Source of the DNA: Octopus vulgaris
Lineage: Eukaryota
Length of the DNA: 64,000 bases
Direction: 5' to 3'
NCBI GenBank assembly: GCA_951406725.2
Contig: OX597817.1
Location: 150,350,001 to 150,414,000 of the forward strand
Positions 31,801 to 37,800 of the stretch are shown here, piece by piece (position 1 is the first letter of the stretch; every line of letters starts with the position of its first letter). The position numbers and the translations under genes were made by a program. Below the pieces are notes generated by a model. It was not told the DNA's origin, did no database searches, and was given only the letters and a program-made list of their open reading frames with translations.

Positions 31801-34800
31801 TAGCTTCAGCAACACCATGAAAAACAAGATTCATTTTTATGCACCATTTATAGACTGTTGCAACATATCAGAATGGTGGAGATTCTTATGGAACTGGATG
31901 AAAATGCTTTTATGACACAAAATAGAGAAGATATCTTCATTTAACATATGCAACTTTTTTTTTTTAACCCCCAGCTAAAAAAGCATTTCGACAGCCAAAA
32001 ATAAAATAAAATAAAGCAAATTTTAGCCAAAGACCATAACAAGAAATGGTCATATTTTCATGTGAGAAATATAAATGAAGTGCAGGAAAAATAAAAGTTT
32101 TGCAAAAAAACAATGGGCGTTTAAGCATAAACGTTTCATAAATAGCAAATAATAAACAAGAAGACCATGCTAGCATTTAAAATTGAACTTTGTTGCTGCA
32201 AAAAGAGAAAGATGTTAGATATGAAGAAAATTCCCTTAGTCTAAAGAACCTACCTCGCAACATCCTTCACCTCAACACATTTCCCAAAGGTGCCTTCACC
32301 AAGGGTCTGAATAATTTCATCTGAAATTAAATATAACGCTCAAATAATCCCTAGTATATGACAAGTGGTACTGGCTAATTACCAGTTTAGAAAAACACTT
32401 CATAGCAATGCAACAAGAGGCTGGCAGCGAAACTACATAAAAACAGTATTTATCTTATTTTGAAAACTGAAAGGCTCAATGGATGAGAGTAAGTTACAGT
32501 TTTACAGTAATATAGTTTTCATCCATTAGGATAGATTTAACACACTTTTGAAGTAGATAAATTAGCTTCATACTTGGGGTAAATGAATAAGACTTATGAC
32601 AAATATATTTTAAGCTATCAAATATGCACTGAAGTATCCAAATAAAGCACCTCACATATGAGAGGTCAGAGAACTTTAAAATAGTTTTTTATAGTAAATG
32701 CTTTAATGTATCCTAATATATTTCAACTAGTAATTGATTTTCAACTAGCTTCTTAAGCTATAAGCTATATATGTATGGACATATAAAAATGCAAAAGTTT
32801 TTTTTTTTTTAAATAAAAGCTAGTGTTGTTGTTCTGAAATGATGTTGAAAAGTATAATGAATACATTAAAGTCTTCGTTAAAAAATGTCTAAGGTGTGTA
32901 TTTATCTGTACACATCACAGTGTCTTCCAATATTGTATGAAAATGTCAGATGTGTCCTTAAAGATTTTGACATATCTAATGAAACAAATTCTAATTTTCG
33001 TAGTTATATTCAGTTCAATGTATCAGATATGTTTCTAAGGCATGTAAAACATTAAGGACTGAAAATTTAAAATATATATATATATATATATGTATGTATA
33101 TACATATATATATATACATACACACACAATTTAAGAATATACAAGAACAGTAGTTTGTTGGATGGAAGAGGGACAGGGAATCATCCATTTGCCAATACAA
33201 TTTAATTTACCTATACAGTTTCAAGAAAGCATTAAAGAGGAAAATGAAAAAAAAAGGGATGGGGAGGGAGACTAAAAGAATTTTAAGATACTCAAATGGA
33301 CCCAATCCTCAATTAAATTTCTTAAAATCAAAATAAATAATTTATCAAAAGGTGGGAGAATTTAATGAAACATAAAAAAAAAAATTTTATGAGATAAATT
33401 ATGTTTTGGAGAAATTGAAACTAAAAAGGCTATCGCCCCAGTTGATTTAGAAATGAAAATATGCTAGACATTTCATACAGGGAAAAGTAGTTTAGCCAAA
33501 GTATAATATACAACACTTGATTTTTAAGCTACTCTGCAGACGTGGAAGATGTAAATTCTTGTTTCAAGTGTTTATAATAACAAAAAATAATATATAAACA
33601 AAGGATATGGAAATATCTTCAGTATAATTTAAATTCACTGAACATCGTTAAATTAATTAATCATTTAGTATTAAAACTAGGATTATTTCAAGTTTACTAT
33701 TTCTACAACACAGTTTAAATCTAAAAAAGGATATTGAAAATATGAGAATTTAAAAAAAATTAAACTAACAACTACTCAGTGATTGTAACTAAGATTTGTT
33801 AACTCTATCCAAACAATTACTATATTTAAAAATTAATCTGTTCTAATTGTATTTCAAGATAAAACTTAGCAATTATTACCCCATCTTTTAAATTAAGATT
33901 ATGAAATTAAAATTTCACTAAGCTTTCGGTTATTGCCATTATTTATATCTATCCTTTTATTTAATTTTAATGCATATTCAAAGAGTAATTAAAAATTTTT
34001 TTAATTATTCTTTTAATTAATCCATAAAATACTAAAATATTAGATTTAAGTATATTTTATGGGGAAATGTTTATAAGGAATGAAAAATGCATTCATTTTT
34101 CAGCAGTTTATATTTCAATTAAAAATAATAGAACTAATGCCTACAAAAGATGGCATGGTTGAAATATAGTTGATCTTCCAATAATTAGAAGACCAAGATA
34201 AAAACAATCACATATACAATAGGCATAAAAAAAAAACTTAAGGATAAATTTAAATCAAGAAAAATGTGTAATTTTGGATATCCCCCAACCCAAATTTTGA
34301 AAATTTTAAATTCTTATAGAAAGAATAAAAATGACAATAGATGGGGAAATTAGATTAGAGATAAGGAAATGTTAAAGAGAGAAATAAAGAAAGTTGAATT
34401 TTAGGATTTAAGAAGAAAATTGGGGGAAGGGGTAAAAGAAACAAAGATAAACAAAAACATTAATACATTTTTGGGAAAAATTGGAGAAAAAAAAAATTAA
34501 GGAAAATGGAAAAAAAAAATGAAAAAAAAAAAAAAGAAGTCAAATAATATCCTAGGCTAAACGTTACGAAATGATGAGTACATCGAGCCTGAAGAACGTC
34601 TCCCGGGTGATAGATCAGGTGACCATCTTCGTCGTCCTCGATGCAGGGCGCTCCAGCAATGAGTTCAGGGTGGTCCTGCTGTTTGTGTCCGCCCCAACGT
34701 ATTTCATCCCCCATTCATTCATTCAGCAGCACATATCATTCCCCAGCAAGCGAACGTATCAATCAGATGGGTGAGCAGCAGTAGAGTTCGTTCACATCCG

Positions 34801-37800
34801 TAGCACCGAATTTTTCAATGCCGCAACAGTGAGGCCAGCCAATTCAGGGTACATATGAGATAAACAAGGGTAGGCAAGGCCAAGTAAAGATAGTGTCACA
34901 TACAAGCAACAAAAGATTTCAAAAAAACAAATGTATATAGATATATTTATATATATATTGAGAGATAAGAGACATATAAGATCACTTTAAAGCCAAGTGG
35001 GGATCAATATTTTAAGAATTTAATTATTCATGCAGTATCAATAAATTATTAAATTGCTTATGAATGGATTGTTTTTACACCAAAAATATTTATCATACAA
35101 CTGAAATCAGCATAATTGAATAAAAGCTATTTACTAATAATATTAATAAAGCATTTAAATATCATTATGACAAAATTAAAAGGCAAGAATGTATATATTT
35201 AACAAAACAATGTAGCAATAGAATTAAATATTACAAAATGAACTAAAGAAATAAAAATGAATATTTAATTGTATAGAATAGCTTCAAAGAATACATATAA
35301 ATATACAAAAAGAAGTTATATCAATGATGCAATTTTAGCAAAAATAAATAAATAAAAACAACACTGACAATCATATTGAATTACAAGTTAAAAATATATC
35401 TCTCAATGACAATAAATTTAGTTAAATCACAAATGCAGGGCTGCCAGGTATTTAAGGTTCAGTTCATGGTTGACCCTCAACATGGAAGTATTTAAGGAAA
35501 TATCTTCCCTAATGAAAAGAGAAATAAAAACATTCCAAAAAGACCTTGATTACGTACACACACGCGCGCGCACATTCAATAGCCAGTCCCTAATGGTATA
35601 TTTAATTTTAAAAAAAAAAGGAAGAAAAAAAACCATGCTTTATTTAATTCCAAGTATGTTCAAAATTTTGATTCTACACTAACTGCACCCTCACTCTTTT
35701 TCCCTCTCTCACATACACACATATATATATATGGAAAAATAAATAGATGTAGTGAAGAATGAAGTGAAACATGCAGAAAAAAGCATTACAATCTTGTTAT
35801 AGAAAGTGTAAGTAAATTAAATTTTCATTTTTGGTGCATCAGCACACAAACACGTCTAAATGTTGGCCAGCCACAAATTTAGTTACCAGCTTCCATGACA
35901 AAATGAAGATAACAAAGTGAAGAAGAAAAAGTGCAATATCAACTTATTTTGCCTATGTTTAACCATATGTTAACCACCAGTAACAGATATTATCAAAAGC
36001 ACTTAAAACTAGATAAAAATGTGAAAGGATTAGTGAAATGCATGGTAACATAGTTTATGGAAGAAGCACAAGATAGAAGTAGAGTGTTGAAAATGTGGAC
36101 TAAAAGGAAAACTAACATTATGCCAAAAATAAAAATGATATTGGAGATGGTGGGGAAACAAGTATTGTCTTAACTAAGGACCCAACTTTTATCAGAATGA
36201 ATGATTCAGGGAAGCAATAATGGCATTTTGTCTATATTTATGTGTAGTTATGAGCAGTGTGTGTGTGCGCACGCGCGCGTTTGTAATTTACATTGGCACA
36301 TGTATGTACCATAAGTAGAAGGTGATTATGAATGTGAGTCCCCCACCACCTTTTTAAACCCAAAACTCAGTAAATATGCTCATAATTTCGAAATTGTTTT
36401 TAGCTCTAGAGTAAATGCTACCAATTTCGAGTTTGGCATTTTGTATTAAATTACTAGTAATACACACATGCAAGCATATATTCAAATATGTCTAAACATA
36501 TACACACTAAAGTAAATGTATGTAGTCATATTCACACACAGCTGTAGAGTTACAAGATACACTTTTTAACTATGTGATTTCAGGTTCTATCCCAATGTAG
36601 GGTATCTTGGCCTAGTATCAACAAAAGTACTGGTTGACCAATGTTTTGTAAATGTAATTGGTAGAGAGGAAACTGTATGAAAGCCGTGTGTGTGTGCGTG
36701 TGTTTACTTTTGCATCTCTGGCACCATTTGAGCATCTGTTTACATCTTTCAAAAAAAAAAAAAAAACTACATGCTGTAGCTGTGATTTTAAAGACTAGTT
36801 GAATAAATACTTGAAAAAGAAGTAAAGGTTGGTGACAGAAAAGGCACCCAGCAATAAATTACTGCCCCAATAAGTCATTGTCCAACCAATGACTACCTGA
36901 AGGGGAGGGGAACTGTGTTTCCACAGCATATTTGTTCTGTATAGTGTATTTGAGTTATAACTCATCTTCAGATGATCTGAAATGTGAATAAATGGAACTG
37001 CCTACGAGATACAAACTTTCTTTGTTCTATAGCACTAAAAATGTACCTCCACAAATCCAACTCTCCTCTTGTACAGTTCACATTTGGTCTAACTTCCTAA
37101 TAAACCCCTGCAATGCACAGTCTCATCGGGTGTTGATGCCTTCCCAAAAGTTAAAACATAGATGGTAGCAGAGGGAGAGGTAATACTTGCTCTATTATTC
37201 TTGTATGTAATTCTCTTTTTCCATCTTTTTTATTTTGTTGATGTGTGTCATCACATTGACATGTCAAACCAGCAGACCACACTAGTATCAAAACAATGTC
37301 TGGCTGCTGTCCTGTCAATTTTTTTTTTATTTTTTACCCCCACTTTAGTTATAAATGGTTTTTGCCACCCACACATAACTAATGTTGACCCAATACACAT
37401 TATGTGTGCACATACACACACAGATATACAAAGTAATTTTTCCTATTATAGCAATACCACTTAAATCCACTCCCTTTTATACTACCCTTCAAAACATCTT
37501 CATGGATCCAACCAAAATCTAGGCAAATGAACTAGTGTTGCCAATTCACTGCTTTATTTCCCTCACTTCCTCCACCAGAAAAGTGATGGAAGTAGCCAAA
37601 ACCAATGCTGCTGTTCCCCACCTAAACAACACAACTTTAGTTGATTAAGGTTTTTGTCTGTCTCAACTCTTATAATAAAAGTTTCTTATTAGACTACCTC
37701 CATTGCAGCATGTCCTAATGGGGACTGCTGTTTCTAGGTCCCATATCAACGCTGGTGTATCCCAGAATGCAGTTATGATGACATGTACACACTTTCTTCT

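What the first reader, a model, noticed from the sequence alone, without database searches (positions are those of the whole stretch)
34681..34984. About 300-nt AG-exclusion zone and purine-rich acceptor before exon 3
Seen: by manual scan there is no minus-strand AG between the acceptor (34679-34680) and 34985. The acceptor has no pyrimidine tract: ctgaatgaatgaatgggggatgaaatacgttggggcggacacaaacagCAG. A pyrimidine-rich tract sits about 170-250 nt upstream and the zone is CpG-rich. Known: long AG-exclusion zones mark distant branch points of regulated exons. Inference: a conserved regulatory element, possibly homologous to the conserved intron upstream of vertebrate CLK exon 4.
Basis: partly seen in the sequence, partly recalled or inferred. 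Interest (0 to 1): 0.7.

Follow-up and report, generated by a model that had tools for sequence, protein, structure and literature searches.

The report
Distant splice signal in octopus CLK
In the octopus gene for the splicing kinase CLK, a 304-base stretch free of the dinucleotide AG precedes the same exon that vertebrates use as an on/off switch for this kinase, and many other animals share the layout, which suggests that this switch is much older than vertebrates.

Summary
Observation confirmed. The window is the Octopus CLK/Doa gene (minus strand). The 304-nt AG-free zone is the longest of 3,196 non-repeat gaps. It precedes a 97/94-nt (3n+1) exon homologous to vertebrate CLK exon 4, with a purine-rich tandem acceptor and a weak GTAC donor.

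The layout is widespread. Of 49 distinct weak-donor versions of the exon, 38 have zones of 169 nt or more (bivalve-, termite-, ant-, tunicate- and vertebrate-type). None of 6 canonical-donor versions does, and the next exon has only 17-77 nt (32 loci).

Published lariat tables put the human CLK2 and CLK1 branch points 146-229 nt upstream, in ATCTGA. The octopus counterpart is probably ATCTTTAC (A at 34885, -207), which is invariant in three related loci. Direct octopus-vertebrate nucleotide homology is only marginal.

Contigs of putative RNA runs confirm the splice sites and cover both flanking introns. Skipping and kinase feedback were not shown. The in-frame ATG at 34714 is not conserved.

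Verdict: a new invertebrate member of a known kind (distant-branch-point exon, CLK exon-4 switch), notable for its age. The scan had no earlier CLK note, only analogous AG-free-zone notes in other genes.

The parts
34681..34984 (-). AG-exclusion zone, 304 nt, 3' end of the intron before the CLK exon-4 homolog
34884..34891 (-). Candidate distant branch point ATCTTTAC, branch A at 34885 (-207); predicted, not mapped
   Evidence: identical octamer in L084, L069, L098; human mapped branch points lie in ATCTGA
34835..34914 (-). Block conserved with a bivalve-type and two other related loci: branch motif, pyrimidine-rich tract, TTATC(A/T)CATAT-like motif
   Evidence: L084 z 7.9, rank 1 of 792 tiles, nhmmer E 0.008
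34853..34883 (-). Pyrimidine-rich tract directly after the candidate branch point
   Evidence: 0.65-0.75 in 20-nt steps
34835..34846 (-). TGAATTGGCTGG, exact match in the vertebrate CLK2-type locus L074; significance marginal
34712..34725 (-). UGAAUG repeats near the acceptor; TGAAT or TGATG recurs in many homologous zones; binding factor not tested
34712..34714 (-). In-frame ATG used by one automatic O. vulgaris annotation (CAI9721981.1, MGDEIRWGG...); not conserved
34676..34680 (-). Tandem acceptor AG-C-AG; the first AG is joined to the alternative first exon in runs X1 and X22; annotated proteins have both ..RQDHP and ..RDHP
34582..34678 (-). Exon homologous to vertebrate CLK exon 4, 97 nt (94 from the second AG), 3n+1, encodes QDHPEL...[18 protein letters not shown]
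34551..34581 (-). Weak donor GTACTC and downstream motif TCGTAACGTTTAG, shared with L084, L069, L098 and weakly with L074
32254..32320 (-). Next exon ([13 protein letters not shown]...), joined to 34582 in 4 of 4 runs
45147..45350 (-). Alternative first coding exon (MKVDVLTAY...) spliced to the acceptor
49398..49644 (-). Upstream RS/His-rich exon, phase-0 donor, joined to this exon in annotated proteins

Best explanation
The zone is the spacer between a distant branch point with its pyrimidine tract (about 34885-34853) and the acceptor of the octopus homolog of CLK exon 4. U2 snRNP and U2AF bind about 200 nt upstream. After branching, the spliceosome takes the first downstream AG, so every AG in between is selected against and the acceptor needs no tract of its own. 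With the weak GTAC donor this makes the exon slow to be recognised and dependent on regulators. Both flanking introns can then be held back, or the 3n+1 exon skipped, which removes the kinase domain from the product. As in mouse Clk1/4, this probably serves as negative feedback of CLK activity on its own mRNA. SHOWN here: the zone, exon homology, splice sites in use, conservation of the layout, conserved motif in four mollusc-type sequences. FROM PAPERS: distant branch points of human CLK1 and CLK2; retention and feedback in mouse. INFERRED: the octopus branch A (about 0.6 for 34885, about 0.85 for some distant site), regulated retention or skipping (about 0.7), control by CLK activity or temperature (about 0.5).
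For: Zone far beyond chance. No yUnAy within 80 nt of the acceptor. 38 of 49 distinct weak-donor sequences have 169-614 nt zones, 0 of 6 with GTAAG/GTGAG donors, and all 38 exons are 3n+1. The next exon of the same loci has 17-77 nt in 32 of 32. The ATCT(T)(T/G)A motif lies within 16 nt of the 5' bounding AG in L069, L098, L005, L074, L053 and L075, as expected if it is what bounds the zone. Human CLK2 record: zone 288, predicted branch -150. Lariat reads fall at that A and at A's 5 and 10 nt upstream (76, 32, 8), and for CLK1 at -224 and -229 (102, 17), with no proximal site in the part of the file held. Run X13 has a contig running 35111-34582 through the zone and on into the next exon; X1, X2 and X13 have contigs over both flanking introns. 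L050 keeps both flanking introns while the kinase body is one contiguous frame, whereas its relative L012 has an intron there. Mouse Clk1/4 retain these two introns under control of about 400 nt around exon 4 (PMC3187705).
Against: No lariat data for octopus. The candidate A lies 100 nt inside the zone rather than at its 5' end; other yUnAy sites exist (-299, -288, -183, -178, -152, -94, -85, -81), and there is a CTGAA at -45. Nucleotide homology to vertebrates is weak. L074 gives z 6.0 against shuffles but ranks only 2nd of 792 window tiles. L053 had 11 tiles at or above the zone's score and L075 had 261. nhmmer and two cross-phylum profiles did not find the zone. The motif regex hit nothing in 8 of 20 zones. 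Five weak-donor sequences have under 60 nt (one cut by a contig end) and six have 92-112 nt. Loci are related to each other (about 17 lineages by my grouping), and 3n+1 was partly used in reading acceptors. The runs are only guessed to be RNA, are contigs, and no silent control stretch was laid; the zone itself was not shown in X1 or X2. Exon skipping was not observed. Retention was not detected for mouse Clk2. L050 could reflect intron loss.
Confidence: 0.7

Rival explanations
1. A conserved distant-branch-point acceptor that is constitutive in octopus: the layout is inherited and kept because new AGs are harmful, but it no longer carries feedback regulation.
For: No skipped form seen; run X22 shows spliced junctions with almost no intron cover; intron cover in the other runs could be nascent RNA or DNA. 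Mouse Clk2 has the layout without detectable retention.
Against: The weak donor, the conserved motif after the donor and the 3n+1 length are kept together with the zone. In X13 the contig runs unbroken from intron into exon. Far-distal branch points are enriched in retained introns (22% vs 4.6%; PMC5959240).
Confidence: 0.17
2. The branch point is near the acceptor (for example CTGAA at -45), and the AG-free zone is a conserved protein-binding platform (UGAAUG/UGAUG repeats) that lacks AG for other reasons.
For: Human CLK1 branches in a CTGAA context, so CTGAA can work; TGAAT/TGATG repeats recur in homologs.
Against: No pyrimidine tract follows -45 (0.29). Other dinucleotides are not excluded, while AG is 0 vs 15 expected. 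Human orthologs branch distally.
Confidence: 0.07
3. The zone is the 5' UTR or promoter region of an internally started transcript that encodes a short CLK beginning MGDEIRWGG.
For: One O. vulgaris annotation has this protein (CAI9721981.1); the proximal 180 nt are CpG- and GC-rich.
Against: A UTR has no reason to lack AG. Most homologs have an in-frame stop or no ATG, and the upstream peptides are unrelated. X13 contigs continue to at least 40100 with two small gaps, with no sign of a start at the zone (contigs cannot show starts).
Confidence: 0.04
4. Chance or a compositional artefact.
For: A 237-nt AG-free run lies just downstream of the exon in T-rich sequence and is not conserved.
Against: 0 of 20,000 shuffles; no tandem repeat beyond a 32-nt AT stretch; same feature at the same exon in distant animals.
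Confidence: 0.02

Closest known systems
Vertebrate CLK1/CLK4 exon 4 with retained introns 3 and 4 (Ninomiya et al. 2011, PMC3187705, passages read; review PMC11346455, passages read)
   Same: Homologous exon, same phases, 3n+1 length, non-consensus donor, long AG-free zone (L053 218 nt, L075 276 nt), distal branch in human CLK1 (-224).
   Different: Flanking introns are far longer in octopus (10.5 or 14.7 kb and 2.3 kb vs 871 and 387 nt in mouse Clk1); at least two upstream exons splice in; base-level similarity is not significant; retention, skipping and feedback are not shown.
Human CLK2 intron 3 / exon 4 (Gooding et al. 2006 supplement file 2, PMC1431707; lariat tables of PMC5378181 and PMC5959240)
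   Same: Zone 288 nt, tandem NAGNAG acceptor, distal branch in ATCTGAC; the non-mammalian CLK2-type locus L074 is the vertebrate sequence most like octopus, both upstream and after the donor.
   Different: Human CLK2 keeps a pyrimidine tract at -20..-6, octopus has none; the branch is at about -146 to -150 vs a predicted -207; mouse Clk2 retention was not detected.
Distant-branch-point exons with AG-exclusion zones, such as PTB exon 11 and GABBR1 exon 23 (PMC1431707, passages read)
   Same: Zone over 150 nt, branch-like motif plus pyrimidine tract far upstream, frameshifting exon in a splicing regulator.
   Different: The candidate branch lies 100 nt inside the zone; not mapped or mutated; an invertebrate case, with the layout traced across protostomes and deuterostomes.

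Membership tests
Distant-branch-point (AGEZ) exons | AG-free zone of 150 nt or more not caused by a repeat | tested here: met
   304 nt
Distant-branch-point (AGEZ) exons | No good branch point and pyrimidine tract within 40 nt of the acceptor | tested here: met
   pyrimidine fraction 0.29; nearest yUnAy at -81
Distant-branch-point (AGEZ) exons | [quoted passage not shown] | tested here: met
   ATCTTTAC at -213..-206 with tract, identical in L084, L069, L098; 100 nt inside the zone in octopus, 3 nt from its edge in L069 and L098
Distant-branch-point (AGEZ) exons | Branch point mapped by lariat or mutation | not testable with these tools
   mapped only for the human orthologs in published tables
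CLK exon-4 autoregulatory cassette | Homologous exon before kinase subdomain I, 3n+1 long | tested here: met
   matches PDB CLK2, CLK1, CLK3 chains (best E 0.001); 97/94 nt; junction confirmed
CLK exon-4 autoregulatory cassette | Nucleotide homology to the conserved vertebrate intron region | tested here: inconclusive
   L074 z 6.0 but rank 2 of 792; L053 and L075 not significant by rank; nhmmer and profiles negative
CLK exon-4 autoregulatory cassette | Selective retention of the two flanking introns in polyadenylated nuclear RNA | tested here: inconclusive
   contig cover in 3 of 4 putative RNA runs, no strand, fraction or silent control; L050 pattern in another animal
CLK exon-4 autoregulatory cassette | Exon skipping that leads to NMD | tested here: inconclusive
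   the stretch laid did not include the upstream exons, and 76 loose ends were not shown
CLK exon-4 autoregulatory cassette | Splicing responds to CLK inhibition, heat or osmotic stress | not testable with these tools
   needs an experiment

The most novel reading that the evidence does not exclude
The CLK exon-4 switch (distant branch point, AG-free spacer, weak donor, frameshifting exon, held-back flanking introns) is one ancestral bilaterian device, kept since the protostome-deuterostome split with a homologous branch motif, and it still works in octopus as a kinase- and temperature-sensitive feedback loop. It would then long predate endothermy, with which the vertebrate conservation has been linked, and lineages that gained a canonical donor lost the zone with it.
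Probability: 0.45. Interest if true: 0.7.

Novelty: new member of a known kind. Interest (0 to 1): 0.5.

Why it matters
CLKs are temperature-sensitive regulators of SR proteins, and their exon-4 feedback is described as conserved across vertebrates and linked to endothermy (PMC11346455, passages). The same cis-layout in a cephalopod, a bivalve-type, insects and a tunicate-type sequence makes the review's open question, whether the system grew out of an older one in cold-blooded animals, directly testable. It names an exon, a candidate branch A and natural variants that lack the zone. It also shows a splicing signal conserved as a layout (absence of AG) where alignment methods see little, and it flags the annotated MGDEIRWGG isoform as a likely product of a retained intron.

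Tried and rejected
Rfam: no match at gathering score in the window; one chance match (E 7.7) near the zone, so no snoRNA. RNA structure: the zone folds no better than shuffles (z +1.09). No genome is held for the window, so paralogs and distant exons could not be searched. No RNA holder is on record as RNA; the runs used are guessed RNA. The zone was missing from the X1 and X2 contigs shown; the tool filters records, so this was not used. The bacterial promoter scan is not applicable and was ignored. nhmmer with single vertebrate zones, a 4-deuterostome profile and an 11-locus profile without octopus all failed to rank the octopus zone first. MAFFT placed L074 differently from the pairwise alignment. 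The MGDEIRWGG peptide has no real homolog among 1.84 billion representatives (4 hits; the two short ones match through the exon part). A-to-I editing that would create an AG in the zone: the one contig over the zone (X13) has no difference. The 237-nt AG-free run after the exon is not conserved. Papers: ten searches listed no paper on this zone in invertebrate CLK/Doa; most subscription papers are not searched. Hillman et al. 2004, which I recall reporting CLK skipping in Ciona, was not held. Frith and Ni 2023 have no Clk in the main text (supplement not searched). PMC13100119 has no CLK in the main text (its supplementary list not seen).
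Full report
1. Observation. On the minus strand there is no AG between 34680-79 and 34986-85, a run of 304 nt. With three simple repeats masked it is the longest of 3,196 gaps (mean 17, next 237); 0 of 20,000 base shuffles were AG-free, against 15 AGs expected. The acceptor is purine-rich (0.29 pyrimidine at -25..-2). Ten other acceptors of the gene have 0.62-1.0 and AG-free runs of 16-96 nt (acceptors of exon 7, the two alternative internal exons and the last exons were not scored). The upstream pyrimidine-rich part and the CpG excess are as described.

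2. The gene. The window holds a CLK/Doa kinase gene on the minus strand. Named proteins that match it are from Octopus vulgaris and O. sinensis; which of the two the window is, I did not settle. The exon after the zone is 34678-34582 (97 nt; 94 from the second AG of a tandem acceptor), phase 0 to phase 1. Its peptide matches PDB chains of CLK2, CLK1 and CLK3 just before the kinase domain (best E 0.001). The vertebrate CLK1/4-type locus L053 has a 91-nt exon with the same borders. That this is 'exon 4' follows from PMC3187705 and recall. Skipping it shifts the frame ahead of the kinase domain.

3. RNA. Twenty of 24 listed runs hold the stretch 32200-35200 or part of it; none is on record as RNA. 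I laid 4 of them, from 4 studies, on 31900-40100. All 4 have the junction 34582 to 32320, so the donor GTACTC is used. X1 and X22 show the alternative first exon (donor after 45147) joined at the first AG. X13 has one contig from 35111 through the zone and the exon into the next exon, and contigs on to 40100 with two small gaps. X1, X2 and X13 have contigs over both flanking introns; X22 has almost none. No joint inside the zone was listed. These are contigs of guessed RNA without a silent control, so retention is suggested, not shown. Skipping could not be seen, because the upstream exons were outside the stretch.

4. Relatives. Thirty-three lack GT at the donor position and were set aside as spliced or intronless. 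The other 79 collapse to 54 distinct sequences, 55 with octopus. For each I took the longest AG-free run that ends 14-135 nt before the motif. Of 49 with a weak donor (GTAC, GTAT, GTTC), 38 have 169-614 nt, 6 have 92-112 and 5 have under 60 (one cut by a contig end). All 6 with GTAAG or GTGAG have under 60. All 38 exons are 3n+1. As a control, the next exon has 17-77 nt in all 32 loci that reach it. By peptide likeness to named proteins, zones occur in a bivalve-type (L084, at least 262), termite-type (L018, 342), ant-type (L010, 614), other arthropod-types (L003, L055, L090), a tunicate-type (L002, 169), a non-mammalian CLK2-type (L074, 203) and CLK1/4-types (L053, 218; L075, 276). Several groups (L005, L007, L012, L017, L022) have no close named match. 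Many loci are close kin; I count about 17 lineages with the zone and 4 with a canonical donor, grouped by eye, without a tree.

5. Sequence homology. Against 500 dinucleotide shuffles, the octopus zone matches L084 (z 7.9), L074 (6.0), L069 (4.6), L098 (3.8), L034 and L082 (3.1); the other 19 of 25 loci scored z 2.5 or less. In a stricter test against 791 other window tiles, L084 and L082 rank first, L074 and L098 second, and L034 third; L053, L075, L002 and the insects do not stand out. nhmmer finds the zone with L084 and L069 (E about 0.01) but not with vertebrate queries, and cross-phylum profiles fail. After the donor, TCGTAACGTTTAG is shared with L084, L069 and L098 (0-2 of 3,554 tiles as good) and weakly with L074 (97 of 3,554). 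So base-level conservation is firm among mollusc-type loci and marginal to vertebrates, while the layout is shared.

6. Where the branch is. Gooding et al. 2006 (PMC1431707; passages and supplement file 2 read) list a human CLK2 exon with a 288-nt zone and a predicted branch at -150; the main text does not mention CLK. Taggart et al. 2017 (PMC5378181; rows of Tables S1 and S2, both cut when stored) have 3 lariat reads at a site whose sequence fits that record, at -143, and 1 read at -201 for a site that fits L053. Pineda and Bradley 2018 (PMC5959240; passages and rows of Files S1 and S2, cut when stored) have scores 76, 32 and 8 at A's spaced 0, 5 and 10 nt, and 102 and 17 at A's spaced 0 and 5, 224-229 nt from the acceptor; no proximal rows appeared. 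The tables carry no gene names. I assign them to CLK2 and CLK1 from recalled coordinates and from the exact fit of these spacings to the Gooding record and to L053. Both main sites are the last A of ATCTGA. L074 has ATCTTGAC; octopus, L084, L069 and L098 have ATCTTTAC. In L069, L098 and L005 an AG follows within 3-6 nt, and in L074, L053 and L075 the zone begins 12-16 nt before the motif, so the motif sits at the zone's edge. In octopus it lies at -207 (34885), 100 nt inside. The same regex hit nothing in 8 of 20 zones and has a chance rate of 0.9 per 300 nt, so the assignment is a prediction. Octopus has no yUnAy nearer than -81.

7. Mechanism. Inferred: branching far upstream, then selection of the first AG, which explains the exclusion and the missing proximal tract. 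The weak donor and distant branch make the exon regulator-dependent. In mouse, about 400 nt around Clk1 exon 4 confer retention of both introns and response to CLK inhibition, and skipping leads to NMD; Clk2 retention was not detected (PMC3187705, passages). L050 keeps both flanking introns while about 317 kinase codons are contiguous, and its relative L012 has an intron in that part. This fits a partly spliced transcript in an invertebrate, though intron loss is possible. Feedback by kinase activity or temperature in octopus is by analogy only.

8. Rivals. An internal start is annotated once (CAI9721981.1), but the ATG and peptide are not conserved. No Rfam family and no stable fold were found. 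A constitutive use of the same layout remains possible.

9. Novelty. Known: CLK exon-4 regulation, the human CLK2 zone and distal branch points in tables. Reviews describe the conservation across vertebrates (PMC11346455; PMC10952393; passages). A CLK phylogeny paper shows no such passage among 12 of 13 places shown (PMC12795684). Ten searches (listings and abstract starts) showed no report of this zone in invertebrates. I recall that CLK exon skipping in Ciona was reported in 2004, but could not read the paper. Unseen supplements (Frith and Ni 2023; PMC13100119) may bear on novelty. The scan's own notes had nothing for this sequence and analogous zones in other genes.

10. Verdict. Real, non-random and explained: a distant-branch-point acceptor at the CLK exon-4 homolog. 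New member of a known kind; interest 0.5, mainly for the evidence that the layout spans protostomes and deuterostomes.

Noticed in passing
window 16135-16224 and 15031-15123 (minus): Two similar internal exons ([12 protein letters not shown].. and [13 protein letters not shown]..) used in a mutually exclusive way in annotated Octopus CLK proteins.
   Followed up: no
window about 8075-8400 and 1699-1872 (minus): Two alternative last coding exons giving different ends of the kinase domain.
   Followed up: no
window 45147-45350 (minus): Alternative first exon [16 protein letters not shown].., nearly identical in an unnamed protein P0003 from another animal; it replaces the RS-rich N-terminus.
   Followed up: partly
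window 44270-44458 (minus): Further exon in annotated protein P0004; the window shows no GT at the implied donor after ..YK.
   Followed up: no
window 34313-34552 (minus): Second-longest non-repeat AG-free run (237 nt), T-rich, just after the exon; homologs do not share it.
   Followed up: yes
L010 (ant-type): 614-nt AG-free zone; shares GGCAAACCATTTTGCCCTCTCCCC after a TGAC motif with the termite-type L018.
   Followed up: partly
L054, L112, L004, L052, L016, L079: The six versions with canonical donors all lack the zone, a possible joint loss of the switch.
   Followed up: partly
L050, whole locus: Both flanking introns present, rest of the kinase contiguous: possible partly spliced transcript.
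   Followed up: partly
window 33454, 37067, 37786 (T>C on +): A>G on the transcribed strand in run X1 (33454 and 37786 also in X2): alleles or A-to-I editing, not separable here.
   Followed up: no
window about 59130-61300: Fragments that look like reverse-transcriptase and Cys/His-finger coding sequence of a LINE-type element in the first intron (label recalled).
   Followed up: no
window 9805-10827, 40717-40950, 41192-41904: Long simple repeats that cause the longer AG-free gaps.
   Followed up: yes
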